Assembly: GCF_022045235.1 (NCBI RefSeq)
Contig: NW_027266272.1
Coordinates: forward strand, 20,832,001 to 20,896,000
Direction: 5' to 3'
DNA: 64,000 nucleotides
Origin: Haliotis cracherodii
Taxonomy: Eukaryota
The translations under genes were made by a program, and so were the position numbers. Shown here piece after piece: positions 14,244-50,094 of the stretch. The notes under the pieces are model-generated. The model searched no databases. It saw only the letters and a program-made list of their open reading frames with translations, and was not told the origin of the DNA. The stretch's first letter is position 1, and each line of letters opens with the position of its first letter.

Positions 14244-14290
14244 GTAGCAATGCAATGTTATGTGCTAATACCTCTTTCAAAGTTTCAGAT

Positions 14291-17650: not shown

Positions 17651-17659
17651 TCTAATAAA

Positions 17660-19573: not shown

Positions 19574-20046
19574 TAAAGCTCAAGGCTATATTTGTCATGT
19601 AAGCCTCTTTTATGGCGATATGTAAGTGGAAAGAAAAAGAAAGTCTTTTGTTACCCAACCGTACCTATGGTGAGCAATTGACTATCCAAAACGAGTTTGA
19701 TAAAAACAAATCAACTAACACATACCCAACACACACACCCGAAAGGCCTGAGAAGGAACGCTTGTAGTCGTGGGAATACATTATGTGTGCCCCAACACGG
19801 CCAGCGTGTTATCAAATTTCAGAATTGCTAAGCACTTTCATATCACAAAACTAGATTTGTTTACATATATTCAGAAATAATTACTTCTTATTTCTTCATT
19901 TTTCATGTTAATTTCAGGAAAGACACAAGAAGCGCTTTTGACCAAAGTCAGTGCGTTTCATTGGCTGGTCCCAGAATTGAGAACAGGCAGCCAAGTGTGC
20001 TGAACATTAAGCAGAGGAAGAAGATAAGGGCTGATGCTATACGACC

Positions 20047-21276
20047 ATGATGTCGCCAGTTTTGTATATTCTTGCCTGTGGTTTTGTGTCCGTTGAGACA
20101 CAACTCAGAAACGCCACTGGTGAATTCCGCCTCTACAATGACATCATTAAGAACAACAACCCATACGAGAGGCCCGTCTACAACAAATCCAAAACTATTA
20201 CGGTTGAATTTGACTTTCATCTACATACAGTGAGCCAATACATTGAGTCACAACAACAGCTCCTATGCACAGGGTGGTTTTTTGTGACGTGGTCTGATCA
20301 GTTTCTCACCTGGAATTCTGAAATGTATGACGGAGTTGAGTTTATCAGACCCCCAGATAGCTACGTGTGGAAACCTGATATTGTTGTGTCCAATTCCTTC
20401 CAACAACTCGACCGCCTTGGAGGAGATTTCGTGTCTCTGAAACTATTTTCAAATGGACGTATACAGTGGATGCCTGGGGATTTATTCTACCTGCCATGTA
20501 ATGTTGATGTTGAGTTGTACCCATTTGATAGCCTGAGGTGTTCTATGAATCTGGTTGTGTGGTCACACTCAGTGACAGAAGTTGACCTGAAACCACAGCA
20601 ATCACGTGCTGGAGTGTCCAGTTCCAATATACGGGGTCAGTGGAGTTTGACGTCAGCCCCTATCATTTCGTTGAAAAAACATTCTGACAACAAAACAATG
20701 CCAACAGTGAAAATTACACTCATTCTAGAAAGACTCCCAACCAATTTTGTCTTTAACTTTATCCTTCCCGTCATGATTCTCTCTCTTCTAGGAACGTTTG
20801 TGTTCCTCATTCCAGCAGATTCAGGAGAAAAAGTATCATTTGCCATCACAATTCCTCTTTCTTATGGTGTCTACATGGGATTTCTAACAAACATGGTACC
20901 ACAAAGTTCCGAGGGTGTGTCCACCTTTATCATTTTCCTTGGAATCACGCTATCATTGTCTGCGTTATTTGTCATCCTCAGCATATTCAGTGTCAGGATC
21001 TCAGCACGCAGTAATTCACGACCCGTTCCTAAAGCATTCCAAAGAATCACCGTCTGGGTTGAACATGTTAAAAACTGTGGTCGACAAAGAAGGTTGCATC
21101 CTAACCATATCTCTGAGGACACAGAACAATCAGATGAGTGCGAGGCTAAGGAACATATTCAAGTAATGACGTGGAATCGAGTGAGCTCGGCTCTGGATCT
21201 GTTTTTCTTCTGGGTGTTGTGTATACCTTTGTTGATAGCGATTCCAGTACTGTTGGTGTCCATAGCAGTGCTTTAA
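20047..21276 (+). CDS. Cys-loop ligand-gated ion channel, nAChR-like non-alpha subunit, type A1 (single coding exon, intact)
   Basis: Signal peptide, RPV, WxD, WKPDIV, Cys-loop C-x13-C (CNVDVELYPFDSLRC), four TM helices, DSGEK before M2, W..V...LD.FFF before M4; no loop-C CC. Confidence 0.95.
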   Translation: MMSPVLYILACGFVSVETQLRNATGEFRLYNDIIKNNNPYERPVYNKSKTITVEFDFHLHTVSQYIESQQQLLCTGWFFVTWSDQFLTWNSEMYDGVEFIRPPDSYVWKPDIVVSNSFQQLDRLGGDFVSLKLFSNGRIQWMPGDLFYLPCNVDVELYPFDSLRCSMNLVVWSHSVTEVDLKPQQSRAGVSSSNIRGQWSLTSAPIISLKKHSDNKTMPTVKITLILERLPTNFVFNFILPVMILSLLGTFVFLIPADSGEKVSFAITIPLSYGVYMGFLTNMVPQSSEGVSTFIIFLGITLSLSALFVILSIFSVRISARSNSRPVPKAFQRITVWVEHVKNCGRQRRLHPNHISEDTEQSDECEAKEHIQVMTWNRVSSALDLFFFWVLCIPLLIAIPVLLVSIAVL

Positions 21277-23894
21277 TGACAAAATATTTCTTCCGAACCA
21301 TCAATTGTATATGTCGTATTTAGTAGAATAGGTTATAGTAATTCTCTGAGAAAAATATTCATTGTGAATTGTGTGTGGAAATAACTGACAGTGTCTTTAT
21401 TTTTGTGTGACTTTAGTATGCTCTATTATGATGTGCCATCTGAAATACAAAACGTTATCACCAGAGAGTAACCAGTCTCGATTATCCGCCAAAACAGATT
21501 CCTTTCCGCACAAAAGCCAAAACAGCAGTGAAAGCTATATGAATGAATCACTGCAAATCAGTGATGACTCTAGTTTTTCGCGCCCCGAAACTCAAAACTG
21601 TATGGTCTGTTCTCCAATGATGGCACGGACGAGGACATAAGAACTCATCTAAATCAGATTAGACTAGCAAAAGCTATCATGTGTCGCAGGAGAAGAATCA
21701 GTTTTCAGCCCTCGCAATTGGGAGAGACATTGGGGGACGCTGGTTGTCAAGTCATAGTTGAGAGAACAAAGCAAAGTGACGCAGGTCTCTGACAGTTTTG
21801 TGTGTGTGAAGCCCAAAGGAGAGCGGGTACAGTCTGAAAAACTAAGGATCATATTCAGTGGAAATCTTGGATTTGACCTGACGATAATAGGATCCTTGGA
21901 CGTAACAACTTGGGCACCCGTGCACCGTTGATCGAATCCAAGCTTGACCAGAGTGTTAAACGACTATGACCGTGCAGTATGGATGGTGCACTCTCTGGCT
22001 TTGGTTTATGCAATACATGTTGTGTCAATAAATGAAGAAGGACGAATCAAAAGTCATGCCTACCGAGCAGAAACAGTGTTCAAATGAAGTAATGCCATAA
22101 AGTGACATGAATAATGAATAAGATTTTAACTGACCATTCAGCACTGAAAATTGCTAAAATTCCCATGTGCAATTAGCATATAATTATCATGACAACCAAG
22201 TCCAAAAATCACAATATTATGTTATTTTTATGTGTGCAGTTCGACAAATGCTTTAAGGTGACACTAGGACACATGTGTTTATCTTGAAGGCAGCAACGTC
22301 TGCGACTGCCACCAACCAAAGATTCCTTGGTTTCCACAGATGTTAAACAGAGTTGGTGCCAATTTCTAATCTTGCTGCACAGTGGAATCGGTGATAACAT
22401 GAATTAGCAGTTAATACAACTGACTTAAGAGGTGCGTTATTGACGGTTATTGATTGCTGTGACGTGCTCGGGCTCTGTGCCCATGTTTACATTGCACTTT
22501 CTAGAGCATGTAAATTGTAAATGAACTGCTGAAGTAGTTGGACGCACAAAACACTCGTTCCTGTTATGTTTCATTGTGAAATGTTAGGACCCTGCAACTT
22601 CGAGTTTTGACATTCTGAACAGTCCAAGCTGTTGTGTGCAAACAGAACAGGGTTGGTCTTTATGAGCGGATTTTGGGGACGTAAATCATTGTGCTTGTTG
22701 ATAGGAGACTGTTCGTTGGGATTAACGCAGCTGTGCATGTGCAACTGTTTCCATGATTTGACATTGTCCATCTGAAAGGTTGAGATGTGTGGGGGTGAAA
22801 GACAAACATAATGGTAATGATCTGAACTCATTTACGGAAGACCGGTAAGTAACATACTTGTGTATGCCATTTCACAGGAATGTGACCCTTTCTATTTATC
22901 TTACTTTATTTAATATATCACTGAGAGGTGGCACATGTTTTAGCTTATCTGCAAATTCGTAAGTGGGTTGTTATCACGTTGCACTCTGCTTTTAGAAGAG
23001 ATTTCTTATGAATATGGGAATGGTTTTGTCTCTTTTATCTATTTCCGTATTAGAACGACCAGTTTCTCGTCACATGACCTCACTCATCCAATGTTACATT
23101 TTTGTTTCAATATTTCCGTCACAAATGGATATTGTCTGTTAAAAATATATTTGACATATACTTTGAATAACGTAGTGTCCGTAAATCTGTACTTTGTAAT
23201 TATAATGTCCACCAACAATTATTGAGATATTTCTTTTCGACAAATATTTAGGTCTGCGGTGATCATACTGAAACAGTCATGCAGGGCAATGTCTTTTAGA
23301 ATAACCAGAACGCTGATTAGGTAAGAATTCGGATTAACTTATTAAATATTTGACCAGTCACATGCCAAATGTGACGTACTGCTGAAATTGTATTTGCGAT
23401 ACCACTAGAATTAAATCTCACTAGAATAGACATCTCCTAAATGACTTGATGGTTCAGTTAAAATTGTATTCAATAAGCACGGAATAGCCAATTCCCTTCC
23501 ATTGACGCTTCCTTTTTTGGCATGAACTTGGTTTTAATCACTATTTGATAGTAATCAATAAACACATGCTCAGGATAGTGGGAACCGTACAATCAACTCT
23601 CCTTTGAGCAGATTTCTTATGGACATGAAAGGTATTTTGTCGCTCTTATTTCCCTGCATTAACCTATGAAAGAGAATGCAAATGCCATTGATTAAAAAAG
23701 CTCCTGTTTTCGTTGGAAAGCAATGAATGGAATGTGGGAATACATTGTACCAAAACATGTTGTGTATATATTATAGGACACTAAGTCAATAATAAAAGCA
23801 TCCATCGATTCTAACCCATGTTTGTTGCAAGAGACGACTAAATAGATTGGGTGTTCCTGGTCGCTGCCGCGGGTCCAGCCTCGAGATATATATA

Positions 23895-25509
23895 CTACTC
23901 AAAAGAAGTTAAAGAACACCAGATATATAATACATGATTTAGCAAATTGGTCATGGCATTATGTATTATAACATTACTATCATCTAATGTTTGGCAACTT
24001 GTTGTACCACGTCTGGGGTATTGCTGTTCCTCCTGACACTTTCTGGAAACACTTCTGCTAGTAATACAAATGAAATGAAAACATGAGCAAAACACAGGAA
24101 TATTGTCGCCCAAACACAATGCTGCACCTGTCCTTAGCAACAACCAACATAATTTCCATGCTCAGCATATGAAAGTGGTGATGTTCATGGTGCACGTGCA
24201 TGTGTTCCCTTTAAGAAGGCGATGACGATGATCGTGTAATCACACTCTCCAAAACCATGCCACAGAGACGACATCTGACTGATGTTAATAGAGGACGAGC
24301 TATTGGTTGGCTCCAGGATGGCCTTTATTTACGTGAGGTGGGCAGAAGATTGCAGGTGTCCCCCTCTGTCATTCACACCCTTTGGCATCGTTTTGCTGCC
24401 ACTGTCAGAGTGCAAGAGCAACATCGTTCTGGACGGCCAAGGTGTACCTCACAACGTGATGACCGATACCTGGTTCTCCAAGCACTCAGGCAGCGTACAT
24501 CAACAGCAAACAACCTCAGGTTACAGTTAAGGGCTGTCAATAACACTGTCGTTAGTGATCAGACGGTGCGAAACCGTTTACAAGTTGCGAACTTGAGAAG
24601 TCGACGACAAGCAGTGAGACCACCTTTACGTCCAGTTCACAGAACAGCACGTCTGGCTTGGTGTCGACAACATGTGCATTAGAACAGACAGCAATGGTCT
24701 CGTGTACTGTTTACAGACGAGTCGCGATTCTGTTTGGAGCTCAATGATGGAAGAATACGGGTGTGGCGTCGTACTGGAGAGAGATTCACTGATGCCACAG
24801 TACGTGAACGTGTCGCTTTTGGTGGGGGATCAGTGTTGTATGGGGAGGATTCAGTTGGAATCACAGGACTCCTCTGTACCATATTGTCGGGAATCTGAAT
24901 GCTGCCAGGTACCGTGATGAGATTCTTGAACCCGTTGTATTGCCCACACTTCATCAGATTGGTCAAGGTGCTATCCTTCAGGACGACAATGCAAGACCCC
25001 ACCGCGCTCGGATTATCACTGACGATCACACACAAAGGCAGATTACCGTTATGCAATGGCCTGCTTATTCGCCAGATCTGGCGCCCATTGAACATCTTTG
25101 GGATGCCTTGGGAAGAGCTGTTCAAGCTAACCATCCACCTCCTGTTAATCTCCAGCAACTGTTAGGATTTCTTCATCAGGAATGGCAAGTAATTCTACAG
25201 GCAACACTGCAGCAGCTTGTCCGATCTATGTGCAGAAGATGTCAGGACTGTATTGCTTCCAGGGGTGGACATACCCGATATTGAAGGAACAGGATTATCC
25301 TGAACTGTAGTGTGTGACTTTTGATTTATAGGGTACATGCAGTTCATATTGTTTTGCTCTGGTTAGCTGTATGCCAGCGTTTCTTTCGTCAATGAAATGT
25401 CATGATTAAATACTTAAATTTCCCAATCAGTGTTGTTCCTGTGTCCACGATCTATTTTTTGAGTCATTTCGATAACGTATTTGGGTGTTCTTTAACTTCT
25501 TTTGAGTAG
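23895..25509 (+). mobile_element. Full-length Tc1 (DD34E) DNA transposon with inactivated transposase
   Basis: 26-bp TIRs ctactcaaaagaagttaaagaacacc flanked by TA; empty site at ~36240 in unit 2; transposase 24257-25284 has LFTDESRF, QDDNARPH and SPDLAPIE (34 residues between D and E), with a stop and frameshifts. Confidence 0.95.
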
Positions 25510-25625
25510 TAATATGCTGAATGCGGCGTTACACATAAAACAATCTAACAATATCAATTTGACTATTTTACATTCCCTCTTATTTAATCTCTGAGACGCG
25601 TGTATCTTTTCAGTATTGCAGCTCC

Positions 25626-26863
25626 ATGGCAATCATGCTGCTCTTCACAATCTGTAATCTGGTGATTGGTGTTGTGTCTATCGAGTCAGCCAGACACTCC
25701 ACTGGTGAATTCCGCCTCTACAATGACATCATCTGGAACAACAACCCAAACGAGAGGCCCGTCTACAACAAATCCGAAACTATAACAGTTGAATTTGACT
25801 TTCATCTTCACACAGTGAGCCGATACATTGAGTCTCAACAACAGCTCCTATGCACAGGTTGGTTTGTTGTGACGTGGTCTGATCAGTTTCTCAACTGGAA
25901 TTCTGAGATGTATGACGGAGTTGAGTTTATCAGACCCCCAGATAGCTACGTGTGGAAACCTGATATTGTTGTGTCCAATTCCTTCAGACAACTCAACCAC
26001 GTTGGAGGAGATTTCGTGCCTTTAAAAGTGTCCTCTTATGGACACGTGCAGTGGATGACAGGAGACTTATTCTACCTGCATTGTGAAACGGACGTTCTAA
26101 TGTATCCATTTGATAGCCTGAAGTGTTCCATGGAGATTGTCGTCTGGTCATATTCGACGTCAGAAGTTGACCTGAAAGTCCGCCAGTCAGTAGCTGGAAT
26201 ATCTAGTTCAAACATAGGCGGTCAGTGGAAACTAAAACCAACATCAATCACAGCCAAGGAAAAGACCTTTGACAACAAGCCAATATCACATGTGCTTATT
26301 ACGCTTACACTGGACAGACGCCCTGTGCATTTTGTCTTCAACTTCATCCTCCCTGTGTTGATCCTGTCGGTCCTGGGGACATTTGTGTTTCTCATTCCAG
26401 CAGATACAGGAGAAAAAATATCCTTTGCCATAACGATTCCTCTGTCATATGGGTCTACTTGGGCTTTCTCACAGACATGATACCCCAGAGCTCCCAGGGT
26501 ATATCGCCCTTCATCATCATCCTTGGACTCACACTTACAATGTCTGCAGTATTTGTCATCGTCAGCATCTTCAGTGTCCGGTTCTGTGGACAGAGTGAAT
26601 CGAAACCCATTCGTAAAACATTACAAAGATTCACAATTTGGGTCGAAAAGGTCGATGCATTTGGCCGGTTTGGAAACCGTGACAAACCTGCAATTGAGGA
26701 ATCTGGACGGTTACAAGAGCTCCAGGCTAAGACTACTCAGCCCGTCACATGGGAACGAGTGAGCAAAGCACTGGATTTGTTTTTCTTCTGGGTGCTGTGT
26801 ATCCCTTTACTTTTGAGAATTCCAATAACACTGATATACATCGGCTTGAACTTGGGTTTCTAG
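25626..26863 (+). pseudogene. nAChR-like subunit type B1, 1-bp frameshift in M2
   Basis: ORFs 25626-26480 and 26459-26863 together match B2/B3; tatGGGtc at 26451 versus tatGGGGtc in B2/B3. Could be a homopolymer assembly error. Confidence 0.85.
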
Positions 26864-28107
26864 GTTATGAATCATTGATGGCGTGTGTTTAAAGCTATTA
26901 TATGTTGTCTCTCGTATTGATCAGTTCGAGTAGTAAATGTGTCTTTCCTTCTGAATGTATTCTCTCTTAAGGAGAGTGCCAAACAGTGTTATATATGACG
27001 TGGATCTTTTCAAATTTTACGCATCAATCACCACAAAGATGTCTGAAGCAATTCCCTATTTAAACAGGAACTAGATGTTCCTGTGTTTATTCAGGTGAAC
27101 ACTTGACTTGCCTTTACGCGTGTGACGTGAGCAACCGGAGGGACAGGATACGGTCGCATTTTCGCAAACACCTGGATTCATCTATTTGATAGTGATTCAA
27201 GAATGATGAAGTCAGAATCGTGCAATGGACATATATTTATAAAAGTCATTTGAGGAATTTATGACAATATGAGTTGCTTTTAATGTGATGCTTTCAGTGA
27301 ATAAAGATGTTGCAATTTATGATTATCGATTAATTAAAGAAAATAAGTCAAACTCATGTGTTTTGCAGGCAAACCAGTCGCTGAAGGAGCAAAAAACCAT
27401 TTCTCAGGCACCCAGGAATGATTTTCAGAGATTGTGCCGATGCAGAAAATATTACCACGGTCTTCGGCGTGACGAGTTAACGCCTTAATCATTAAGCTAC
27501 CCTGGAAAGGCGTTGGTCCCGCGTATGATGACGTCACTGGCCAACGACAGACTTAGATTTGCTTTCATGTGAGATATCAGGTATCGTTAGGAGATTCTGA
27601 ACACGTTCATTGATTTTCAAAGTGCAAAAAGTAAACAGGTAACGATGTTTACACAGTCTGCAAAGATTTTTTACAGCTTGAAGGGTGTCTTTTAAAATGG
27701 CTGACAGTAACAAAGTCCACTATGAAACTGGCATACATCCCGACTAGTACAAGCAGCCACGCAGGCCGCAAAATAAGTGAAGTAAGCTTGAACCCACCTC
27801 ACCTCATGTCAAGATTTCCTTTATAATTTCATTTGCAGTAAGCATAAAGAGTAAAAATGTATAAGTACAAAGCATTCTTGTTATTAAATGTTACTCCCCA
27901 AGGAAAGACTAGTTTGTAGAACGTAATGAGAACACTTGACTATCACAGCAAAAACACGTTGGTTTTTCTTCGATGCGCTGACGCTCGGCATTAAGAGGGT
28001 AATACAAGGATTAGCCGGCTCGGAGTCAGTATACTGTGTCTGAGTGGGGGATAAACGTTAAACTGCGCCATGATGAATCAGTATGATTGCACTATAAAGC
28101 CTACTAG

Positions 28108-28171
28108 TACACACACACACACACACATACACACACACTCACCACACACCACACACCACACACACACACAT
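28108..28171. repeat. (CA)n microsatellite at a SINE tail; also at 38886-38932 and 50052-50090
   Basis: Visible dinucleotide run. Confidence 0.9.
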
Positions 28172-28829
28172 ATGCACTAATCTTTGTTTCAACAAAGAAT
28201 TAGCCCCAACACAAACCAAAGATAACATATTTCACAAAAACTATTTTGAGGTTCATATGGACTGTTATTATCATTTCAAAATTGTTGAAAAAGAGTTCCA
28301 TTCTTCGAACAGACAAACGTGACTTACAGTTTGAATGCACAATTGTTTCACTCTGTACAGTACAAAATTGAGTATCACACCCGAACCTGTTCACGTATCA
28401 CAAAAACATTTACAAAGATTTTGAGGGAGAAGAAATACTTCACACAATGTTTTAAGGATCTTTCAGACAGAATTCATTTGAGCATTATCAGAATACAGCG
28501 CCTCGCAAACATAAGATCTTAGCAATAATGTACTCACACAATGCATTCGATTATGTGCAACTGCTTCGAAAGCAGTCTTTTTATTATATTTGTTTCTTTG
28601 TTTGTTGTAAATAACCGAGTCTGAACCATGCAATCCAATGACTGACATTATGAGCATCGATTAACACAATTTGGATGGTGGCATGCGAGACTAACCACAC
28701 GATCATGTCAATCATCTCAAATGGCAAGCACAGGTTGCTGAAGACCAATTCTAACTTGGATCTTCATGGGTATTTTGAATGTATTATCACTGGAATAGGG
28801 CCTTTGGTGGTGAACTCTATATTGAAGTA

Positions 28830-29093
28830 CTCAGTTGTAAGACAAATGTTCTTAACTATTTTAGCAGAAATATTGACGCCATAAGCTGGATCTGATTGCA
28901 TATTCGTTAAGATAAAGCCGAAATCCAAAGCTGGAAAATCGAAATCATCCCTTTTGTCATACAGCGGGTTACACAGGTTGCCATGGTTTTGACTGCCTAT
29001 GTACAAGGTGCTTAGGACACGTTGATTGGTTTTAGATTCACAAGTGATCACAACATTTAATAGTGGATGCGCGTAGAAGCCTCTAATAAACAC
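28830..29093 (-). mobile_element. Penelope-like RT C-terminal fragment; also at ~40170-40430 and 51638-51880
   Basis: LYDKRDDFDF...F....N.QSDPAYGV.IS matches the YDKRDDF.F...SN.P...YGV.IS motif of Penelope-like RTs. Confidence 0.7.
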
Positions 29094-29881
29094 CTCAGAA
29101 GGAAATTGAATGATTCTGACAGATTACGACTTCTCATGATCAATCACAGAGTATTTAATGAGGTCAACGCTCTCCATGGAAATCACTGTAAACATCCACG
29201 ATGTTACGAGACACATCAACTAATTTGTATTGTGTAACTGATGTCCCGACAACTGTTTGCATGTTGTAATTATTCATCAGTCCTAATGGCATTTGTGTAA
29301 ACCAGTGTTGCAGGTTACAGGGCCTCAGTGGTGTTTGTTATGTTATTCATCGTGGACGTGCGATACCGGGGAGGCTGCTTACACACAGTCATATCGGTTG
29401 CACCTCATCGATCTGTGTACAGGCTGATAACAGATCGGTAGGTGGCATTATCGTGGAAAGGACGTTTTTGGAGTGGAATGTTTTTACGTTTCTCACAGGA
29501 AAGATAAAACGAACTACATGTCTTTCTGCGACACGGTATCACTGTTCCATTATGACGGGTATGGATTTACAATGGACTAAGGTGTTTCAACAAGGAAATA
29601 ACTACATCTTTACCGGTAAGTTTAGTTAGCGATCAGGATACCTTTTCCACAAAGCAACCTTAGTTCTACGGCTGCCTTTATCAGTGGTAATGCATGGGCG
29701 GTACGGCTGTCTTGGTGCAAATATCTCTTTGTGGAGCATGCCCTGATGGATATTGTTTTCCTATTTGGATGTTAACTGATTGATCCAAAATACTCATATC
29801 ATTGTTAAAGGCATTGTACACGAATATTTGTACTAGCATAATTTTATAATAACGTCATTTCTATACTTTCATTTTCTTAAG

Positions 29882-30050
29882 TGGGCGGTCGGGTAACCTA
29901 GTGGTTAAAGCGTTCGCTCGTCACGCCAAAGACCCGGATTCGATTTCCGACATGGGTACATTGTGTGAAGCCCATATCTGGTGTCCCCCGCCGTGATTTT
30001 GCTGGAATATTGCTAAAAGCGGCGTAAAACCATACTCACTCACTCACTCA
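29882..30050 (+). mobile_element. tRNA-derived SINE with TSD cattttcttaa
   Basis: Same family as 4057; shared with unit 3, absent at ~18515 and ~52665. Confidence 0.9.
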
Positions 30051-30303
30051 TTTTCTTAAATAATCAGTTACGCATATGATTTCGTAGATTTGTTTAGTTA
30101 TATATTTACAACAAAAATACACGATTTTGAATCAAAGGAAATTATGTTAATTTCTTCACATATTGTGGTATTGTTTCAAATATGCAGGTAACTAGACAAA
30201 TCTCTAACATATTGTTTAAACACAATTTGGTTGGCTGACGGGACAGTCTCTTGAAAAGAAGTATGATTAAATATAACGTATCTATTACCCTTAACATTCA
30301 TTA

Positions 30304-31263
30304 TGAATTCCTTAATTACATACGTACATTTACAATTATAGGATTGTGTGAAACCTGGCTAAAAGCTTGCGACTTTTCAAAGGAGTTCTCTGAATATGTT
30401 TACTTTAATGTTGATGCTTGCCAAATCTCCAAACAAGGTAGGCTATCCGGTGGTATTACATTGTTAATAAAAAACACACTTTCAAAATCCATTTTATGGT
30501 CAAAAATATGTGACAACTGTGTTTTCATTTTGCTAAAGAAATCTGTATTTAATAATGCTAAGGACACTCTTATAGGTTGTGTATACATCAATCCAGAGAA
30601 GTCAAATTGGTATGTCAATAAAGCTGACAAGTGCGGCGTATCTATACTCCAGGATGCGTTAATATATGTACTTCAACAAGTGGGGAACGTCTCTATCCTC
30701 CTCGGGGGCGACTTCAACGCCCGCACTGGAACAGACTTTGATTTTGTTGAGGACGATATAATGAGAGCTCTGCAAATTGACAAGTGTCATTTTCTCTGTG
30801 AGGGTATTTGCACACAGCGATTTTCATCCGATAAGACTGTGAACAAATTTGGGCGAATTTTGCTTCATATGTGTGCTTCTCTAAACTTGACTATACTTAA
30901 TGGTCGTTGTGGATCTGATGCCAGTGTGGGAGATTTTACGTTTATGTCCCCTACAGGCACAAGCGTTATTGACTATGTTATCACAACAAGTGATTTGTTT
31001 ACATTGTGTAAGAATTTTAACATCGGATCTCGGATCGAGTCTCCGCACGCGCCATTCAGTTGTACTTTTCAGTCACGTGATACTGAAATTGACAATGCTA
31101 TGTCGGGTGAGAATCTGAAGCCGGATGTTTTTAATAGGAAAAAGGATAATGTTTCGTTACAAGCCTATTCACTGCAGCGTAAAACATATAAGGATACCGT
31201 TGGGTGTAAGAAAAGAGCTACCACTTTTTGTGAATAAACAATATATTCATTCAACATTCATTA
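30304..31263 (+). mobile_element. Internally deleted LINE (CR1/L2-group-like) carrying an APE endonuclease domain
   Basis: GLCETW, SGG, VYINP, GGDFNART, LNG, SVIDY and SPH motifs; AATAAA plus ATTC-type tail; flanked by aacattcatta direct repeats. Confidence 0.85.
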
Positions 31264-36300: not shown

Positions 36301-36407
36301 ACATTCCCTCTTATTTAATCTCTGAGACACGTGTATCTTTTCAGTATTGCAGCTCCACGGTTTCAAAAGTCTGCACTGCGAAGTTCTGCATCACCATCTG
36401 TGCAATC

Positions 36408-37637: not shown

Positions 37638-38882
37638 GTTATGAATCATTGATGGCGTGTGTTTAAAGCTATTACATGTTGTCTCTCGTATAGATCAGTT
37701 CGAGTAGTAAATGTGTCTTTGCTTCTGAATGTATTCTCTCGTAAGGAGAGTGCCAAACAGTGTTATAAATGACGTGGATCTTTTCAGATTTTACGCATCA
37801 ATCACCACAAAGATGTCTGAAGCAATTCCCTATTTAAACAGGAACTAGATGTTCCTGTGTTTATTCAGGTGAACACTTGACTTGCCTTTACGCGTGTGAC
37901 GTGAGCAACCGGAGGGACAGGATACGGTCGCATTTTCGCAAACACCTGGATTCATCTATTTGATAGTGATTCAAGAATGATGAAGTCAGAATCGTGCAAT
38001 GGACATATATTTATAAAAGTCATTTGAGGAATTTATGACAATATGAGTTGCTTTTAATGTGATGTTTTCAGTGAATAAAGATGTTGCAATTTATGATTAT
38101 CGATTAATTAAAGAAAATAAGTCAAACTCATGTGTTTTGCAGCCAAACCAGTCGCTGAAGGAGCAAAAAACATTTCTCAGGCACCCAGGAATGTTTTTCA
38201 GAGATTGTGCCGATGCAGAAAATATTACCACGGTCTTCGGCGTGACGAGTTAACGCCTTAATCATTAAGCTACCCTGGAAAGGCGTTGGTCCCGCGTATA
38301 ATGACGTCACTAGCCAACGGCAGACTTAGATTGGCTGTCATGTGAGATATCAGGTATCGTTAGGAGATTCTGAACACGTTCATTGATTTTCAAAGTGCAA
38401 AAAGTAAACAGGTAACGATGTTTACACAGTCTGCAAAGATTTTTTACAGCTTGAAGGGTGTCTTTTAAAATGGCTGACAGTGACAAAGTCCACTATGAAA
38501 CTGGCATACATCCCGACTAGTACAAGCAGCCACGCAGGCCGCAAAATAAGTGAAGTTAGCTTGAACCCACCTCACCTCATGTCAAGATTTCCTTTATAAT
38601 TTCATTTGCAGTAAGCATAAAGAGTAAAAATGTATAAGTACAAAGCATTCTTGTTATTAAATGTTACTCCCCAAGGAAAGACTAGTTTGTAGAACGTAAT
38701 GAGAACACGTGACTATCACAGCACAAACACGTTGGTTTTTCTTCGATGCGCTGACGCTCGGCATTAAGAGGGTAATACAAGGATTAGCCGGCTCCGAGTC
38801 AGTATACTGTGTCTGAGTGGGGGATAAACGTTACACTGCGGCATGATGAATCCGCCTATATGATTGCACTATAAAGCCTACT

Positions 38883-38925
<43 letters not shown>

Positions 38926-41221
38926 ACACCACATATGCACTAATCTTCGTTTCTATTTTCTCCGCGTTTTTCTGTTATAATAGATCGTTATTCGACGATA
39001 TCGAAGCAACATAACCACTCCTCCTCTATAAGCCTGTGATTCTAATTACAACCCCCCAGGAAGAGTATCGAGAGCAAGACCTCATCAAACGTGAGCTAAC
39101 ATCTTGGCCAGTGTTGTGTCTCCTTTCTAAACGCCCGTTCAACCAACCTGATTGCCACGTGCCGTCCAGTTGCGGAAGTTGTTACCACACCAACTGTTTC
39201 TAGCACAGATAACATTGTATGATCTTCTCAGTCATCACAGTGCAAAAACAGGGTCAGCCTGGCAACAATTTCTGAACGTGTTGTTTCAATCGGTTCTTGG
39301 GGCATGCACTGGAGAGACATGGGACCAAGATAAGATGTGATCATACCACGTTTATGCTTATCAAGTGATGGTTTAACGCCACAATCAGCAGTTTTCAAGA
39401 CATGGTGGCGGTTGGGTAATCTGGTGGTTAAAGTGTTCGCTCGTTACATCGAAGGTCCGGGTTCTATTCCCCACACGGGTAGAATGTGTGGAACCCATAT
39501 CGTCGTGGACTCGACTGACGGTTTGGATGCAATCATCAAGAATTTGCCCCAACACAAACCAAAGATAACATATTTCACAAAAACTATTTTGAGGTTCATA
39601 TGGACTGTTATTATCATTTCAAAATTGTTGAAAAAGAGTTCCATTCTTCAAACAGACAAACGTGACTTACAGTTTGAATGCACAATTGTTTCACTCTGTA
39701 CAGTACAAAATTGAGTATCACACCCGAACCTGTTCACGTATCACGAAAACATTTACAAAGATTTTGAGGGAGGAGAAATACTTCACACAATGTTTTAAGG
39801 ATCTTTCAGACAGAATTCATTTGAGCATTATCAGAATACAGCGCCTCGCAAACATAAGATCTTAGCAATAATGTACTCACACAATGCATTCGATTATGTG
39901 CAACTGCTTCGAAAGCAGTCTTTTTATTATATTTGTTTCTTTGTTTGTTGTAAATAACCGAGTCTGAACCATGCAATCCAATGACTGACATTATGAGCAT
40001 CGATTAACACAATTTGGATGGTGGCATGCAAGACTAACCACACGATCATGTCAATCATTTCTAATGGCAAGCACAGGTTGCTGAAGACCAATTCTAACTT
40101 GGATCTTCATGGGTATTTTGAATGTATTATCACTGGAATAGCGCCTCTGGTGGTGAACTCTATATTAAAGTACTCAGTTGTAAGACAAATGTTCTTAACT
40201 ATTTCAGCAGAAATGTTGACGCCATAAGCTGAATCTGATTGCGTATTTGTCAACATAAAGCCGAAATCCACAGCTGGTAAATCGAAATCATCCCTTTTGT
40301 CATACAGCGGGTTACACAGGTTGCCATGGTTTTGACTGCCTATGTACAAGGTGCTTAGGACACGTTGATTGCTTTTAGATTCACAAGTGATCACGACATT
40401 TAATAGTGGATGCGCGTAGCAGCTCTAATGAACACCTCAAAAGGAAATTGAATGATTCTGACTGATTACGACTTCTCATGATCAATCACAGAGTATTTAA
40501 TGTCTTCAACGCTCTCCATGGAAATCACTGTAAACATCCAAGATGTTTCGAGACACATTAACTGAATTGTAATGTGTAACTGATGTCCCGACAACTGTCT
40601 GCGTGTGGTAATTATTCATCAGTCCTAATGGCATTTGTGTAAACCAGTGTTGCAGGTTACAAGGCCTCAGTGGTGTTTGTTATGTTATTCATCGTGGACG
40701 TGCGATACCGGGGAGGCTGCTTAAACACAGTCATATCGGTTTCATCCCATCGATCTGTGTACAGGCTGATAACAGATCAGTAGGTGGCATTATCGTGGAT
40801 GGGACGTTAAGGAGTGGACTGTTTTTACGTTTCTCACAGGAAAGATAAAACGAACTACATGTCTTTCTGCGACACGGTATCACTGTTCCATTATGACGGA
40901 TATGGATTTACAATGGACTAAGGTGTTTCAACAAGGACATAACTACATCTTTACCGGTAAGTTTAGTTAGCGATCAGGATACCTTTTCCACAAAGCGACC
41001 TTAGTTCTACGGCTGCCTTTATCAGTGGTAATGCATGGGCGCTACGGCTGTCTTAGTGCAAATATCGCTTTGTGGAGCATGCCCTGATGGATATTGTTTT
41101 CCTATTTGGATGTTAACTGATTGATCCAAAATACTCATATCATTGTTAAAGGCATTGTACACGAATATTTGTACTAGCATAATTATATAATAACGTCATT
41201 TCTATACTTTCATTTTCTTAA

Positions 41222-41391
41222 GTGGGCGGTCGGGTAGCCCAGTGGTTAAAGCGTTCGCTCGTCACGCCAAAGACCCGGGTTCGATTCCCGACATGGGTAC
41301 ATTGTGTGAAGCCCATATCTGGTGTCCCCCGCCGTTATTTTGCTGGAATATTGCTAAAAGCGGCGTAAAACCATACTCACTCATTCACTCA
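41222..41391 (+). mobile_element. tRNA-derived SINE (duplicate of 29882)
   Basis: Same sequence context and TSD as the unit 2 copy. Confidence 0.9.
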
Positions 41392-41634
41392 TTTTCTTAA
41401 ATAATCAGTTACGCATATGATTTCGTAGATTTGTTTAGTTATATATTTACAACAAATACACGATTTTGAATCAAAGGAAATTATGTTAATTTCTTCACAT
41501 ATCGTGGTATTGTTTCAAGTAACTAGACAAATCTCTAACATATTGTTTAAACACATTTTGGTTGGCTGACGGGACAGTCTCTTGAAAAGAAGTATGATTA
41601 AATATAACGTATCTATTACCCTTAACATTCATTA

Positions 41635-42594
41635 TGAATTCCTTAATTACATACGTACATTTACAATTATAGGATTGTGTGAAACCTGGCTAAAAGCTTA
41701 CAACTTTTCAAAGGAGTTCTCTGAATATGTTTACTTTAATGTTGATGCTTGCCAAATCTCCAAACAATGTAGGCTATCCGGTGGTATTACATTGTTAATA
41801 AAAAACACACTTTCAAAATCTATTTTATGGTCAAAAATATGTGACAACTGTGTTTTCATTTTGCTATAGAAATCTGTATTTAATAATGCTAAGGACACTC
41901 TTATAGGTTGTGTATACGTCAATCCAGAGAAGTCAAATTGGTATGTCAATAAAGCTGACAAGTGCGGCATATCTATACTCCAGGATGCGTTAATACATGT
42001 ACTTCAACAAGTGGGGGACGTCTCTATCCTCCTCGGGGGCGACTTCAACGCCCGCACTGGAACAGACTTTGATTTTGTTGAGGACGATATAATGAGAGCT
42101 CTGCAAATTGACAAGTGTCATTTTCTCTGTGAGGGTATTTGCACACAGCGATTTTCATCCGATAAGACTGTGAACAAATTTGGGCGAATTTTGCTTCATA
42201 TGTGTGCTTCTCTAAACTTGACTATACTTAATGGTCGTTGTGGATCTGATGCCAGTGTGGGAGATTTTACGTTTATGTCCCCTACAGGCGCAAGCGTTTT
42301 TGACTATGTTATCACAACAAGTGATTTGTTTACATTGTGTAAGAATTTTAACATCGGATCTCGGATCGAGTCTCCGCACGGGCCATTCAGTTGTACTTTT
42401 CAGTCACGTGATACTGAAATTGACAATGCTATGTCGGGTGAGAATCTGAAGCCGGATGTTTTTAATAGGAAAAAGGATAATGTTTCGTTACAAGCCTATT
42501 CACTGCAGCGTAAAACATATAAAGATACCGTTGGGTGTAAGAAAAGAGCTACCACTTTTTGTGAATAAACAATATATTCATTCAACCTTCATTA
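41635..42594 (+). mobile_element. LINE APE endonuclease fragment, unit 3 copy (nonsense codon at 41867)
   Basis: ORFs 41582-41869 and 42011-42568 are near-identical to the 30251 ORF. Confidence 0.85.
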
Positions 42595-43283
42595 AGCCAT
42601 TTAGATACAGACTACATCCGTGGTCTAGTGGAAAGAGAGTCTGCCCGGAGAACGAAAGGTCGGTAGTTCGACGCCCGCCTACATAATGCGAAAAGACGTT
42701 TAAAGATAGTAGTTCTTTTTACCCTGCCTGGTCGGCTGAGATTCAGTATACTGTGTCTTAGTGGGGTATCAATGATACATTGTGGCGTGCTATCTGTGTG
42801 GACTAGAACTACACAAGCGGCATTCGTACTGACCGTCAACGACAAACACGCACGCATGCACTCACACACACGCGCACACACACATGCACGTCGCGGCGTA
42901 AGTGTGTAAGTGTAAAAAGAAGCACTATCTTTTAACGTCTTTTCGTATGACGCATAATCACCTCACCTCACCTCACCTCACCTCACCATGTATTGTCAGC
43001 AGCGGTATGAAACTTGCAAACAGTTATTTGGCCATCTGCATGTAGCAAGTAATCAAATTTCAGAATTGATAAGCACTCTCACACCACAAAACCAGATTTG
43101 TTTGCATATATTCAGAAAGAATTACTTAATTATTTTTTATATTAATTTCAGGTAAGACACTAGAAGCACTTTTGACCAAAGTCAGTGTGTTTCATCGGCT
43201 GGTCCCAGAATTGAGAACAGGCAGCCAAGTGTGCTGAATATTAAGCTGTCATCGCAGAGGAAGAAGATAAGGGCTGATGTTAT

Positions 43284-44519
43284 ATGACCATGATGTCGCC
43301 AATTTTGTTAATTCTTGCCTGTGGTTTTGTGTCTGTTGAGACACAACTCAGAAACGCCACTGGTGAATTCCGCCTCTACAATGACATCATCTGGAACAAC
43401 AACCCATACGAGAGGCCCGTCTACAACAAATCCGAAACTATTACAGTTGAATTTGACTTTCATCTACACACAGTGAGCCGATACATTGAGTCTCAACAAC
43501 AGCTCCTATGCACAGGGTGGTTTGTCGTGACGTGGTCTGATCAGTTTCTCACCTGGAATTCTGAGATGTATGACGGAGTTGAGTTTATCAGACCCCCAGA
43601 TAGCTACATCTGGATACCTGATCTTGTTGTGTCCAGTTCCTTCCAACAACTCGACCGCCTTGGAGGAGATTTCGTGTCTCTGAAACTATTTTCAAATGGA
43701 CATATACAGTGGATGCCTGGGGATTTATTCTACCTGCCATGTAGTGTGGATGTTGAGTTGTACCCATTTGATAGCCTGAAGTGTTCTATGGACCTGGTTG
43801 TGTGGTCACACTCAGTGACAGAAGTTGACCTGGAACCACGGCAATCTCGTGCTGGAGTGTCCAGTTCCACTATACGGGGTCAGTGGAGTTTGACGTCAGC
43901 CCCTATCATTTCGTTGAAAAAACATTCTGACAACAAAACTTTGTCAACAGTGAAAATTACACTCATTCTAGAAAGACTCCCAACCAATTTTGTCTTTAAC
44001 TTTATCCTTCCCGTCATGATTCTCTCTCTTCTAGGAACGTTTGTGTTCCTCATTCCAGCAGATTCAGGAGAAAAAGTATCATTTGCCATCACAATTCCTC
44101 TTTCTTATGGTGTCTACATGGGATTTCTAACAAACATGGTACCACAAAGTTCCGAGGGTGTGTCCACCTTTATCATTTTCCTTGGAATCACGCTATCATT
44201 GTCTGCGTTATTTGTCATCCTCAGCATATTCAGTGTCAGGATCTCAGCACGCAGTAATTCACGACCCGTTCCTAAAGCATTCCAAAGAATCACCGTCTGG
44301 GTTGAACATGTTAAAAGCTGTGGTCGACAAAAAAAGTCGCATCCTAACCATATCTCTGTGGACACAGAACAATCAGATGATTGCGAGGCTAAGGAACATA
44401 CTCAAGTAATGACGTGGAAGCGAGTGAGCAAGGCTCTGGATCTGTTTTTCTTCTGGGTGTTGTGTATACCTTTGTTGATAGCGATTCCAGTTCTGTTGCT
44501 GTCCATAGCGTTTTTTTAA
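43284..44519 (+). CDS. Cys-loop nAChR-like non-alpha subunit type A3 (intact)
   Basis: 411 aa; Cys-loop CSVDVELYPFDSLKC; M1-M3 identical to A1. Confidence 0.95.
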   Translation: MTMMSPILLILACGFVSVETQLRNATGEFRLYNDIIWNNNPYERPVYNKSETITVEFDFHLHTVSRYIESQQQLLCTGWFVVTWSDQFLTWNSEMYDGVEFIRPPDSYIWIPDLVVSSSFQQLDRLGGDFVSLKLFSNGHIQWMPGDLFYLPCSVDVELYPFDSLKCSMDLVVWSHSVTEVDLEPRQSRAGVSSSTIRGQWSLTSAPIISLKKHSDNKTLSTVKITLILERLPTNFVFNFILPVMILSLLGTFVFLIPADSGEKVSFAITIPLSYGVYMGFLTNMVPQSSEGVSTFIIFLGITLSLSALFVILSIFSVRISARSNSRPVPKAFQRITVWVEHVKSCGRQKKSHPNHISVDTEQSDDCEAKEHTQVMTWKRVSKALDLFFFWVLCIPLLIAIPVLLLSIAFF

Positions 44520-46604
44520 TGACAAAATGTTTCTTACGAACCATCAATTGTATATGTCGTATTTAGTAGAATAGGTTATAGTAATTCTCTGAGAAAAATA
44601 TTCATTGTGAACTGTGCGTAGGAATCAATGATAAGATCTTTGTTTTTTATGACTTGAGATTGCACTATTATGATGTGCCATCTGAAATAAAAAGCGTCGT
44701 CACCAGAGAATAACCAGTCTCGGGTTTCCGTCAAAACAGATTCCTTTTGGCACAAAAAGCAAAACAGCAGTGAAAGCTATATGAATGGATCACTGCAAAT
44801 CAGTGTTGACACTAGTTTTTTGCGACCCGAAACTCAAAACTGTACGCCCCATGCTTTGGTTTATGCAATACGTTTTGTGAGAATAAATGAGGAAGAACGA
44901 ATCAAACGTCATGATTACGTATCAGAAACAGTGTTCAGATGAAGAAATGCTTTTAAGAGACATGAATAATGAATAAAATCGTATCGTATTGTTCTCAAGA
45001 ATGGACCAATTTGGCGTCATCTCCCTTTTAACTGACCATTCAGCATTGAAAATTGTTAAAATTCCCATGTGCAAATAGCATATAATTATCAATAACTCAC
45101 AATATTATGTTATTTTTATGTGTGCAGTTAGACACCTGCGTTAAGGTGACACTAGGGCACATGTGTTTATCTTGAAGGCAGCAACGTCTGCGACTGCCAC
45201 CAACCAAAGATTCCTTGGTTTCCACAGATGGTATACAGAGTTGGTGCCAATTATTAATATTGCTGCACAATGGAATCTGTGATAACGTGTACTGACGGTT
45301 ATTGATTGCTATTATGCTCTGGGCCTCTGTGCCCATGTTTACATTGCACTGTCTGGATCCCGTAAATTGTAAATGAACTGCGGAAGTAGTTGGACGCACA
45401 AAACACTCGTTCCTTTTATGCTGCGAATTCGTGTTTCATTGTGAAATGTTAGGACACTACAACTCCGAGTTTTGACATCCTGAACAGTCCAAGCTATTGT
45501 GTGCAAACAGAACAGAGTTGGGATTTTATGAGCGGATTTTGTCAACATAAATCATTGTGCTTGTTGATAGCAGATAGTTCGTTGGGATTAATGCAGCTGT
45601 TCAACTGTTTCCATGACTTGACAGTGTTCATCGAAAAGGTTCAGATGTGTTTGGCGATAAAGTCAAAGACAAACATAATGGTAATAATCTAAACTGATTT
45701 TCGGAGGACTGGTAAGTAACATACTTGAACATACCATTTAACTGGAATATGACCCTTCTATTTATTTTACTTTATTCATTATATCATTGAGAGGTAGCAC
45801 ATGTCATTAGCCTATCTGCAATTGCGTAAGTGGTTTGGCATCACCATTCACTATTTCTTATGAATATGGGAATGGTTTTATCCGTTATATATTTTATTTA
45901 TTTCGGTATAAGAGCGATCAGTTTCTCGTCACATGACCTCACGGATCCAATGTTTCATTTTTGTTTCAATATTTCTGTCAAAAATGGATATTGTCTGTCA
46001 AAAATGTATTTGACATATGCTTTGAATAACGTAGTGAATGCAAATCTGCATTTTGTAATTATAATGCCCACCAACAATTATTGAGATATTACTTTTCGAC
46101 AAATATTTAGGTCTGTGGTGATCAAACTGAAACAGTCATGCAGGGAAATGTCTTTTTGAATAACCAGATCGCTGATTAGGTAGGAATTCGGATTAACTTA
46201 TTAAATATTTGACCAGTCACATGCCAAATGTGACGTACTGCTAAAATTGTATTTGTGAAACCATTAGAATTATATCTCAGAATAAGAATGTGGAGAATGG
46301 AGACTTCTGATGTGATGAATTGAATTTGTATCATTTTTGTCAAAATATACGATAATATTAGGGACCCACAATTTCACTGCCTCAAAACACGTGATTAGTA
46401 TTCTGTGAAGGAAGGAGCGGACATCAGGACATCCAGCATACAACTTATTTTTAGCACATCTGGCCTAAAAGGATTTTGTCGCCGCAGGTCGTCCGCCGTG
46501 GGCGTACTCAATGCAATTGTTTTACATTTTTGACATCTCCAAAATGGCTTGATGGTTCAGTTAAGATTGTATTCAATAAGCACCGAATAACAATTCCCTT
46601 CCAT

Positions 46605-47010
46605 TGAATTACTCACCTGAACTAGGAATAAAGGAGACCGGTGAGACCATTTTATCTGATTCATATTTAGATGTATGCATAAAGTTACAGAGTGACAAAA
46701 CACTCTCCCAATTTCTACATTTCGCAACTTTTGAGGTCAATCGAGCATGCCCCTTTTACGAAGATTACAACTCTGTGTCAGTAGTTGTTTGATCAAGGTT
46801 ACAACATTCAATGATTGAGCAAGGCTTCCAACCATTTTTATGGAAGACATACAGAGGAAAGTTTCAAATTTGACGCATCAGTGACAAAAATAATGTCCGA
46901 TGCAATTCCCTATTTTGACTTGTCCCCGTGTTAAACAATTGATTTGACTTTGAATGTGTTTGCGACGGGTGCCACTAGTGGGGCAGGATCTGCTCCCTTT
47001 TTCGCGAAAA
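46605..47010 (+). mobile_element. Penelope-like RT / 3' fragment shared by units 3 and 4 (second copy ~58210-58590)
   Basis: YSPELGIKETGETILSDSYLDVCI resembles YP.EL.IK.T......YLD; absent at the equivalent sites in units 1 and 2. Confidence 0.55.
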
Positions 47011-47499
47011 CCGAGTTTTAATCACAATTTGATAGTAATTAATAAACACATGCTCAGGATAGTGGGAATCGTACAATCAACTCTCATTTGAGCAGATTTG
47101 TAATGGACATGAAAAGGGTTTTGTCGCTCTCATTTCCCTGCATTTACCGATGAAAGAAAATGCAAATGCCATCGATTAAACAAGCTCGTGTTTTCGTTGG
47201 AAAGCAATGAATCGAATGCATTGTACGTTGTGTATTTAATATAGCGTTAATTAAAGAATCCCTCTATTCTAGCCCATGTTTGTTGCAAGAGACACTAAAT
47301 GGATTGGGTGTTCCTGCTCGCTGACGCGGGTCCAGCCTCGAGTTATATATATTCCTGAATGCTGCGTTAGATATCTAACAATCTAACAATATCAATTTGA
47401 CTATTTTACATTCCCTCATATTTTACCTCTTTTCATTATTGCAGATCCACGGCATCAAAAGTCGGCACTGCGAAGTTCTACATTACCATCTGTGCAATC

Positions 47500-48729
47500 A
47501 TGCTGCTCTTCACAATCTGTAATCTGGTGATTGGTGTTGTGTCCATCGAGTCAGTCAGACACTCCACTGGTGAATTCCGCCTCTACAATGACATCATCTG
47601 GAACAACAACCCATACGAGAGGCCCGTCTACAACAAATCCGAAACTATAACAGTTGAATTTGACTTTCATCTACACACAGTGAGCCGATACACTGAGTCT
47701 CAACAACAGCTCCTATGCACAGGGTGGTTTGATGTGACGTGGTCTGATCAGTTTCTCACCTGGAATTCTGAGATGTATGACGGAGTTGAGTTTATCAGAC
47801 CCCCAGATAGCTACGTGTGGAAACCTGATCTTGTTGTGTCCAATTCCTTCCAACAACTCAACCATATTGGAGGAGATTTCGTGCCTTTGAAAGTATCCTC
47901 TTATGGACACGTGCAGTGGATGACAGGAGACTTATTCTACCTGCATTGTGAAACGGACGTTCTAATGTATCCATTTGATAGCCTGAAGTGTTCCATGGAG
48001 ATTGTCGTCTGGTCACATTCGACGTCAGAAGTTGACCTGAAAGTCCGCCAGTCAGTAGCTGGAACATCCAGTTCAAACATAGGCGGTCAGTGGAAGCTAA
48101 AACCAACATCAATCACAGCCAAAGAAAAGACCTTTGACAACAAGCCAATATCACATGTACTTATTACGCTTACACTGGACAGACGCCCTGTGCATTTTGT
48201 CTTCAACTTCATCCTCCCTGTGTTGATCCTGTCGGTCCTGGGGACATTTGTGTTTCTCATTCCTGCAGATTCAGGAGAAAAAATATCCTTTGCCATAACG
48301 ATTCCTCTGTCATATGGGGTCTACATGGGCTTTCTCACAGACATGATACCCCAGAGCTCCCAGGGTATATCGCCCTTCATCATCATCCTTGGACTCACAC
48401 TTACAATGTCTGCAGTATTTGTCATCGTCAGCATCTTCAGTGTCCGGTTCTGTGGACAGAGTGAATCGAAACCCATTCGTAAAACATTACAAAGATTCAC
48501 AATTTGGGTCGAAAAGGTCGATGCATTTGGCCGGTTTGGAAACCGTGACAAACCTGCAATTGAGGAATCTGGACAGTTACAAGAGCTCCAGGCTAAGACT
48601 CCTCAGCCCGTCACATGGGAACGAGTGAGCAAAGCACTGGATTTATTTTTCTTCTGGTTGTTGTGTATCCCTTCACTTGTAGGAATTCCAATAACACTGA
48701 TATACATCGGCTTGAACTTGGGTTTCTAG
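47500..48729 (+). CDS. Cys-loop nAChR-like non-alpha subunit type B3 (intact)
   Basis: 409 aa; Cys-loop CETDVLMYPFDSLKC; DSGEK; four TM helices. Confidence 0.95.
   Translation: MLLFTICNLVIGVVSIESVRHSTGEFRLYNDIIWNNNPYERPVYNKSETITVEFDFHLHTVSRYTESQQQLLCTGWFDVTWSDQFLTWNSEMYDGVEFIRPPDSYVWKPDLVVSNSFQQLNHIGGDFVPLKVSSYGHVQWMTGDLFYLHCETDVLMYPFDSLKCSMEIVVWSHSTSEVDLKVRQSVAGTSSSNIGGQWKLKPTSITAKEKTFDNKPISHVLITLTLDRRPVHFVFNFILPVLILSVLGTFVFLIPADSGEKISFAITIPLSYGVYMGFLTDMIPQSSQGISPFIIILGLTLTMSAVFVIVSIFSVRFCGQSESKPIRKTLQRFTIWVEKVDAFGRFGNRDKPAIEESGQLQELQAKTPQPVTWERVSKALDLFFFWLLCIPSLVGIPITLIYIGLNLGF

Positions 48730-50054: not shown

Positions 50055-50094
<40 letters not shown>

What the first reader, a model, noticed from the sequence alone, without database searches (positions are those of the whole stretch)
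20047..48729. Strict A-B alternation: two divergent subunits duplicated as a cassette
Seen: the order is A-B-A-B-A-B-A and every complete duplication unit contains one A and one B. The types differ strongly in loops E, F and C, M3, the intracellular loop and M4. Neither has alpha-type loop C. Inference: A and B may form a heteropentamer, with paralog combinations giving different specificities. The pairing could also be a passive result of unit length.
Basis: partly seen in the sequence, partly recalled or inferred. Interest (0 to 1): 0.7.

Follow-up and report, generated by a model that had tools for sequence, protein, structure and literature searches.

The report
Alternating abalone channel genes swap DNA
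Two related ion-channel genes of an abalone alternate along the chromosome because a block holding one of each was copied, likely by unequal crossing-over, and the two genes keep the first quarter of their protein almost identical, most likely by swapping DNA, while the rest stays distinct, which may let them build mixed channels.

Summary
The alternation is real, but it is best read as a by-product. Seven nAChR-like Cys-loop genes run A-B-A-B-A-B-A in ~11.4 kb units. Only four are intact (A1, B2, A3, B3), and one unit of four holds an intact pair. The youngest duplication broke inside an A gene (A2 is an A3/A1 chimera), so it had to carry the B between.

A and B are old paralogs (dS about 1.0 over codons 122-409) but nearly identical over codons 23-121 (dS 0.04-0.15; 1 of 252 fixed differences). 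Variants there are shared across types, so gene conversion is recent. The tract covers the N-terminal half of the extracellular domain; loops E, B, F, C, M3, the intracellular loop and M4 stay type-specific.

Both types lack the acetylcholine pocket, keep a cation-type M2, and occur together in bulk contigs from relatives. Haliotis rufescens has 4 A and 4 B proteins, but only A-like proteins were found for H. asinina and H. rubra. Partial conversion tracts occur in 5 of 8 other clusters; strict alternation in 0 of 8. Co-assembly is plausible, untested and probably not obligate.

The parts
17356..58906 (+). Tandem array of three full units and one partial unit of ~11.4 kb (starts 17356, 28786, 40189, 51547)
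   Evidence: self-blastn; unit alignment
18200..18268 (+). 3' end of A1's upstream non-coding exon (start not mapped); splice donor at 18268, homologous donors at 29615, 40956, 52401
   Evidence: loose end of contig in run X13 located; GT donor in 4 of 4 units
20047..21276 (+). A1, intact 409 aa nAChR-like subunit
23895..25509 (+). Tc1/mariner transposon in B1's 5' intron, absent from B2 and B3
   Evidence: Pfam HTH_Tnp_Tc3_2 and DDE_3; terminal inverted repeats with TA
25635..26863 (+). B1, frameshifted in M2 (G run at 26451-26453 is one base shorter than in B2 and B3); real lesion or assembly slip not settled
32412..33395 (+). A2, chimera (A3-like to codon 186, A1-like from codon 194) with an in-frame 243 bp deletion of codons 20-100
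36408..37637 (+). B2, intact 409 aa subunit
43290..44519 (+). A3, intact 409 aa subunit; coding exon begins at 43152 after an intron from 40957
43357..43652 (+). A/B conversion tract as seen in A3 (codons 23-121); the same tract lies in A1, A4 and B1-B3, and A2 lacks most of it
45128..45711 (+). B3's 5' non-coding exon, covered by contigs from 609 nt after A3's stop; donor 45711 spliced to B's coding exon (acceptor 47444); homologous donors at 22844, 34962, 57316
   Evidence: contig joints in X12, X16 and X15
47500..48729 (+). B3, intact 409 aa subunit
50921..51055 (-). Inverted 135 bp relic of the N-terminal tract, 77-79% identical to all six copies that hold it
55137..56347 (+). A4, pseudogene with two in-frame stops and frameshifts
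56906..58906 (+). Orphan B-type 5' exon and intron with no B coding exon behind it

Best explanation
This is an abalone array of two old, non-alpha nAChR-like subunit genes whose alternation likely arose passively from unequal crossing-over inside A copies, and whose codons 23-121 are kept nearly identical, most likely by continuing gene conversion, while the rest of each gene stays distinct. Shown: the order, the unit structure, the A2 chimera, the tract, the loss of the acetylcholine pocket residues and the cation-type M2 motif. Inferred: misalignment of two A copies copies or deletes everything between them, so a B always travels along. Conversion persists where identity is still high and substitutions are tolerated, and stops at the signal peptide and at beta5/loop E, where changes would likely alter ligand specificity. 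Both subunits likely form cation channels gated by something other than acetylcholine. They can probably co-assemble, but A probably does not need B.
For: Informative sites switch from units 1,4|2,3 left of A to 1,2|3,4 right of it, with 98-100% identity across the youngest copied block. Within the coding region A2 matches A3 at all 18 diagnostic sites to codon 186 and A1 at all 20 from codon 194 on. dS of A vs B is 0.95-1.05 outside the tract and 0.04-0.15 inside, Fisher p 5e-9 to 2e-16 in 4 of 4 intact pairs. 1 of 252 fixed A/B differences lies in the tract; the longest clean run is 210 bp against a maximum of 68 in 10,000 permutations; 4 polymorphisms in the tract are shared by both types. 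In the tract A vs B proteins are 91-98% identical, closer than A vs H. asinina or H. rubra A-like proteins (82-89%); outside, the order reverses (62-63% vs 72-81%). M1-M3 is also conserved in protein yet has dS 0.88, so protein constraint alone does not explain the tract. dN/dS of A vs B is 0.25-0.29 outside the tract. Only A-like proteins were found for H. asinina and H. rubra. Partial tracts occur in 5 of 8 other clusters at varied positions.
Against: Strict alternation was seen in 0 of 8 other clusters, so this array is unusual. Intact copies are balanced in two species. The tract's 5' boundary is the same in a third organism (X13, X15). These three points fit selection on the pair. The protein tree of the tract alone does not reject one A clade (p-AU 0.159), so the case rests on the DNA counts. 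Only the youngest duplication was mapped; older ones are assumed to be alike. Absence of B in two species rests on annotation, not on genome search. No function was tested.
Confidence: 0.62

Rival explanations
1. A and B form a selected heteropentamer. Conversion of the N-terminal half of the extracellular domain is favoured because it keeps their assembly surfaces matched, while loops E, B, F and C diverge to build a new pocket at the A/B interface. Balanced copy number is kept by dosage selection.
For: Both types occur in 4 of 4 bulk runs. After the youngest duplication one A (A2) and one B (B1) were broken, leaving 2:2; H. rufescens has 4:4 annotated. Three of four glycine-receptor assembly boxes named in PMC6110938 fall in the tract by my recalled landmark mapping. 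M2 is 25/27 identical. A1/A3 carry more amino-acid change per silent change than B2/B3 (22:6 vs 10:15, p 0.0055, one pair each), as for a variable and a constant partner. Precedents: DEG-3/DES-2 and TLR1/6-type mosaic pairs.
Against: A-like proteins occur without B in two species. Cassette copying alone gives equal numbers. Tracts in other clusters fall at varied places. Only 1 of 4 units has an intact pair. Loop E, which also lines the subunit interface (recalled), lies outside the tract.
Confidence: 0.25
2. The pair is held together in cis. B's transcript begins about 600 nt behind A's stop, so B's upstream regulatory DNA lies in or under A's 3' end, or B is made by read-through, and copies of B without A would be silent.
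For: Contigs cover A3's 3' flank into the bin ending at 44949 (X13) and B's 5' exon from 45128 (X14). AATAAA lies at 44882 and 44972. The fourth unit carries B's 5' exon together with A4.
Against: A and B each have their own upstream exon and donor. No listed contig bridges 44950-45127 at 90% likeness. Contigs cannot show transcript starts or ends.
Confidence: 0.11
3. The array or the tract is an assembly artefact from collapsed or chimeric reads.
For: B1's lesion is a one-base loss in a G run, a typical sequencing slip. The raw DNA run laid here was uninformative.
Against: Units differ by 1-20% with private insertions. The same mosaic appears in 8 H. rufescens proteins and in contigs of another organism, where B's signal-peptide sequence runs into an A3-like tract.
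Confidence: 0.02

Closest known systems
Lophotrochozoan expanded nAChR-like genes (Jiao et al. 2019, PMC6896357)
   Same: Coding-intronless Cys-loop subunits in tandem arrays, most without alpha-type binding residues; about 100 such hits in this genome
   Different: The main text has 0 occurrences of 'gene conversion', 'Haliotis' or 'alternat'. Here each gene also has a 5' UTR intron.
Cephalopod chemotactile receptors and Alvinella Alpo4 (PMC11526382, PMC10338036)
   Same: nAChR-derived; described as not acetylcholine-gated; Alpo4 lacks the loop C cysteines; chemotactile receptors form homo- and heteropentamers
   Different: Orthology was not tested. A and B also lack the loop A and distal loop C aromatics that Alpo4 keeps. 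Ligand and tissue are unknown.
Nematode DEG-3/DES-2 (PMC8841521)
   Same: Two linked nAChR subunit genes with a chemosensory role
   Different: [quoted passage not shown] A and B are non-alpha, each has its own upstream exon, and co-assembly is untested.
Mosaic gene-conversion pairs: red/green opsins, TLR1/TLR6, CCR2/CCR5 (PMC3924837, PMC2720389)
   Same: Neighbouring paralogs homogenised in one segment and distinct elsewhere; selection on binding surfaces proposed
   Different: Here the diverged part is about 70% of one coding exon with dS near 1, the pair is itself multiplied as a cassette, and the protein is a pentameric channel subunit.

Membership tests
Cys-loop pentameric ligand-gated ion channel subunit | Extracellular ligand-binding domain plus transmembrane region | tested here: met
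   PF02931 and PF02932 above cut-off in 4 of 4 intact copies; best solved relative alpha7 nAChR, E 5e-48
Cys-loop pentameric ligand-gated ion channel subunit | C-x13-C loop | tested here: met
   residues 151-165 in A3 and the matching B3 stretch
Cation-selective nAChR/5-HT3 branch | Glutamate at M2 position -1' (GEK motif; rule recalled) | tested here: met
   SGEK in A and B, aligned to alpha7; selectivity itself not measured
alpha-type nAChR subunit | Vicinal cysteines in loop C | tested here: not met
   absent in A3 in the alignment to alpha7 and in B
alpha-type nAChR subunit | Aromatic cage of loops A, B, C and D | tested here: not met
   loop D and loop B tryptophans kept; loop A tyrosine is Ser; first loop C tyrosine is Ser in A and Phe in B; second is Leu, Met or Ile
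Lophotrochozoan retro-type tandem nAChR-like genes | Coding region without introns, in a tandem array | tested here: met
   single-exon ORFs; array
Cephalopod chemotactile receptors | Membership of the CR clade | not tested
   no CR sequences were fetched
Cephalopod chemotactile receptors | Gating by hydrophobic ligands in sensory epithelium | not testable with these tools
   needs expression and recording
Obligate heteromeric pair (DEG-3/DES-2 type) | Both subunits always present together across species | tested here: not met
   only A-like proteins found for H. asinina and H. rubra; annotation-based
Obligate heteromeric pair (DEG-3/DES-2 type) | Co-expression in the same cells | tested here: inconclusive
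   same bulk sample in 4 of 4 runs; no cell-level data
Obligate heteromeric pair (DEG-3/DES-2 type) | One primary transcript | tested here: inconclusive
   separate upstream exons, but under 200 nt between A's 3' cover and B's 5' exon
Mosaic gene-conversion pair | Silent-site identity confined to one segment | tested here: met
Mosaic gene-conversion pair | Paralogs closer than orthologs in the segment, reversed outside it | tested here: met
   identity tables; the AU test on the tract tree was not significant

The most novel reading that the evidence does not exclude
A and B are a two-subunit sensory channel in which gene conversion is selected to keep the N-terminal assembly half of both subunits matched, while the other half diverges to build a non-acetylcholine pocket at the A/B interface. 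B would be the constant partner and A the variable one, and the pair is amplified as a cis-coupled cassette at balanced dosage.
Probability: 0.2. Interest if true: 0.75.

Novelty: new variant of a known kind. Interest (0 to 1): 0.45.

Why it matters
Molluscs carry about a hundred or more orphan nAChR-like subunits whose ligands and partners are unknown. This pair is a natural domain-swap experiment: a shared N-terminal half with two versions of loops E, B, F, C and the intracellular loop. It makes directly testable which half sets assembly and which sets ligand choice, and it names a partner to co-express when a single orphan subunit is silent. It also warns that trees and read mapping of these clusters are distorted by segmental conversion, and that alternating gene order is weak evidence for a heteromer.

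Tried and rejected
AlphaFold2 on a 9-sequence alignment failed (pLDDT 35.7), so no fold search was run and the model was not used. No complex prediction was run, because homologous Cys-loop subunits would be expected to pass by likeness to solved pentamers. The run search listed no holder on record as RNA; runs were treated as RNA only where contigs join at GT-AG sites. Raw DNA run X18 laid 71 reads, 70 of them only partly, and could not test the lesions or copy number. The idea that 45128 is a splice acceptor with a further upstream exon was dropped: the unlaid part of X12 record 5 continues downstream, not upstream. A search for an alternative B upstream exon matching P0021's extra N-terminus found nothing in the array. 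No similarity was found between A's and B's upstream regions. Positive selection between A and B was not seen (dN/dS 0.26-0.34 in the C-terminal extracellular half). The root of the A/B family was not resolved (56/86), and the one-clade test for A outside the tract did not finish. A search for short B fragments scored 0 of 164 candidates. A Pfam scan of a possible decayed reading frame behind A1 was not completed. Earlier scan notes held nothing. PMC12068001 gave nothing used.
Full report
Observation. The window holds seven nAChR-like genes on the + strand in the order A-B-A-B-A-B-A. The four intact ones (A1, B2, A3, B3) carry the ligand-binding and transmembrane Pfam domains, and the nearest solved relative of A3 is alpha7 nAChR. 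B1 has a frameshift in M2, A2 has an in-frame deletion of codons 20-100, and A4 has stops and frameshifts. Named homologs are from Haliotis, with H. rufescens at 93% (A) and 98% (B, residues 120-409) identity, so the organism is inferred to be a close abalone relative. No further close copies were found in the genome: the next hits are about 35% identical (102 of 368 candidates scored), and the 10 kb flanks hold none.

How the alternation arose. The array is three ~11.4 kb units plus a partial fourth that ends about 120 bp before the place where a fourth B coding exon would start. In the four-unit alignment, informative sites group units 1,4 against 2,3 to the left of the A gene and 1,2 against 3,4 to the right, with 98-100% identity across one continuous block. 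Within the coding region A2 matches A3 at all 18 diagnostic sites up to codon 186 and A1 at all 20 from codon 194 on. The youngest duplication is therefore an unequal exchange inside A copies, which must copy the B between them. Older duplications were not mapped.

Over codons 122-409 A and B differ at dS 0.95-1.05 and dN about 0.27. Over codons 23-121 dS is 0.04-0.15 (Fisher p 5e-9 to 2e-16 in 4 of 4 intact pairs). Of 252 fixed A/B differences in the coding region, one lies in 43357-43652; the longest clean run is 210 bp against at most 68 in 10,000 permutations. Four polymorphisms in the tract, at codons 79, 109, 112 and 116, are shared by both types. B1 and B2 come from the youngest duplication, yet at codons 109, 112 and 116 B1 matches A1 and B2 matches A2 and A3. 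The serine at 116 in A2, A3 and B2 is in 0 of 8 H. rufescens proteins. Exchange therefore continued after the youngest duplication. Within the tract A and B proteins are 91-98% identical, closer than A is to H. asinina or H. rubra A-like proteins (82-89%); outside, the order reverses, 62-63% against 72-81%. M1-M3 is 81% identical in protein but has dS 0.88, so protein constraint alone does not give silent identity. Against this, the protein tree of the tract does not reject one A clade (p-AU 0.159), though none of 200 bootstrap trees had it; outside the tract B is a clade at 99/100.

What the tract covers. By the alpha7 alignment and recalled topology, it runs from the mature N-terminus through loops D and A and ends before beta5 and loop E. 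Loops E, B, F and C, M3, the intracellular loop, M4 and the signal peptide are type-specific. Both types keep the loop D and loop B tryptophans, lack the loop A tyrosine, the loop C cysteines and the distal loop C tyrosine, and keep the GEK motif and a nearly shared M2. They are likely cation channels gated by something other than acetylcholine.

Transcription. No holder was on record as RNA. In four runs guessed to be RNA, from two other organisms, contigs cover type-specific parts of both A and B in 4 of 4. Joints at GT-AG sites show a 5' exon of B ending at 45711 (X12, X16, X15) and a 5' exon of A ending at 40956 (X13). B's 5' exon is covered from 45128, 609 nt behind A3's stop, and A's 3' cover reaches the bin ending at 44949. 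This shows bulk co-occurrence and tight spacing, not shared cells or one transcript.

Relatives and controls. H. rufescens has 4 A and 4 B proteins on contigs of one length, read as one scaffold; gene order was not available. H. asinina and H. rubra each gave two A-like proteins and no B, in searches with A, with B's C-terminal part and for short fragments. This is annotation-based, and whether B was lost there or arose later is unresolved. In eight other clusters of this genome, chosen, 57 long reading frames were compared after dropping short or broken pieces. Strict alternation appeared in 0 of 8, one cluster interleaves two types irregularly, and 5 of 8 hold partial homogenised tracts at varied positions, including one over M2-M3 between two genes only 50% identical. 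Segmental conversion is common in these arrays; the alternation is not.

Literature. PMC6896357: part 1 of 6 of the text and passages. PMC11526382, PMC3924837, PMC6110938, PMC2720389, PMC10338036, PMC8841521 and PMC12068001: passages only. The listings of searches showed no title or abstract on this abalone pair or on conversion between Cys-loop paralogs in molluscs; the library lacks most subscription papers, and no supplements were read.

Verdict. The alternation is best explained mechanically, and an obligate heteromer is not supported. What deserves attention is an old subunit pair with a persistently shared N-terminal half, which makes co-assembly a concrete and testable possibility. New variant of a known kind; interest 0.45.

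Noticed in passing
window 32412-33395: A2 keeps its signal peptide and an open frame but lacks codons 20-100, which recalls the truncated human CHRFAM7A subunit (named; its modulatory role is recalled). It is in the protein collection as P0015. It is too young to show selection.
   Followed up: partly
G000:C16:4596825-4598120 and 4647131-4648396 (L034, L039): Two nAChR-like genes 50% identical overall share an almost identical M2-M3 stretch (8 nucleotide differences in 50 codons), a pore-region conversion tract.
   Followed up: partly
G000:C56:12091203-12149002 (L005-L011): Cluster interleaving two types about 81% identical in the order X Y X X hybrid Y Y X.
   Followed up: partly
window 50921-51055, minus strand: Inverted relic of the tract, 77-79% identical to both types, perhaps from a lost inverted copy older than the present homogenised sequence.
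   Followed up: partly
window 21389-22090: Stretch behind A1 and A2 with few stops in one frame, possibly a decayed coding relic; about 400 bp of it is missing from units 3 and 4, and a contig of run X13 runs into it.
   Followed up: partly
window 30239-31237, 41570-42568, about 53175-54075: LINE-like endonuclease fragment inside A's 5' intron in units 2-4, largely missing from unit 1.
   Followed up: partly
window 10685-14744: Broken reading frames resembling a reverse transcriptase and a tyrosine recombinase of a DIRS-like element (resemblance recalled; frames listed).
   Followed up: no
window 59374-60732 and 16313-16764: Tandem repeats with 142/171 bp and 29 bp units on either side of the array.
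   Followed up: no
M2 of A and B, residue 270 of A3: A proline at M2 position 8' in all A, B and A-like abalone proteins aligned, where alpha7 has leucine.
   Followed up: no
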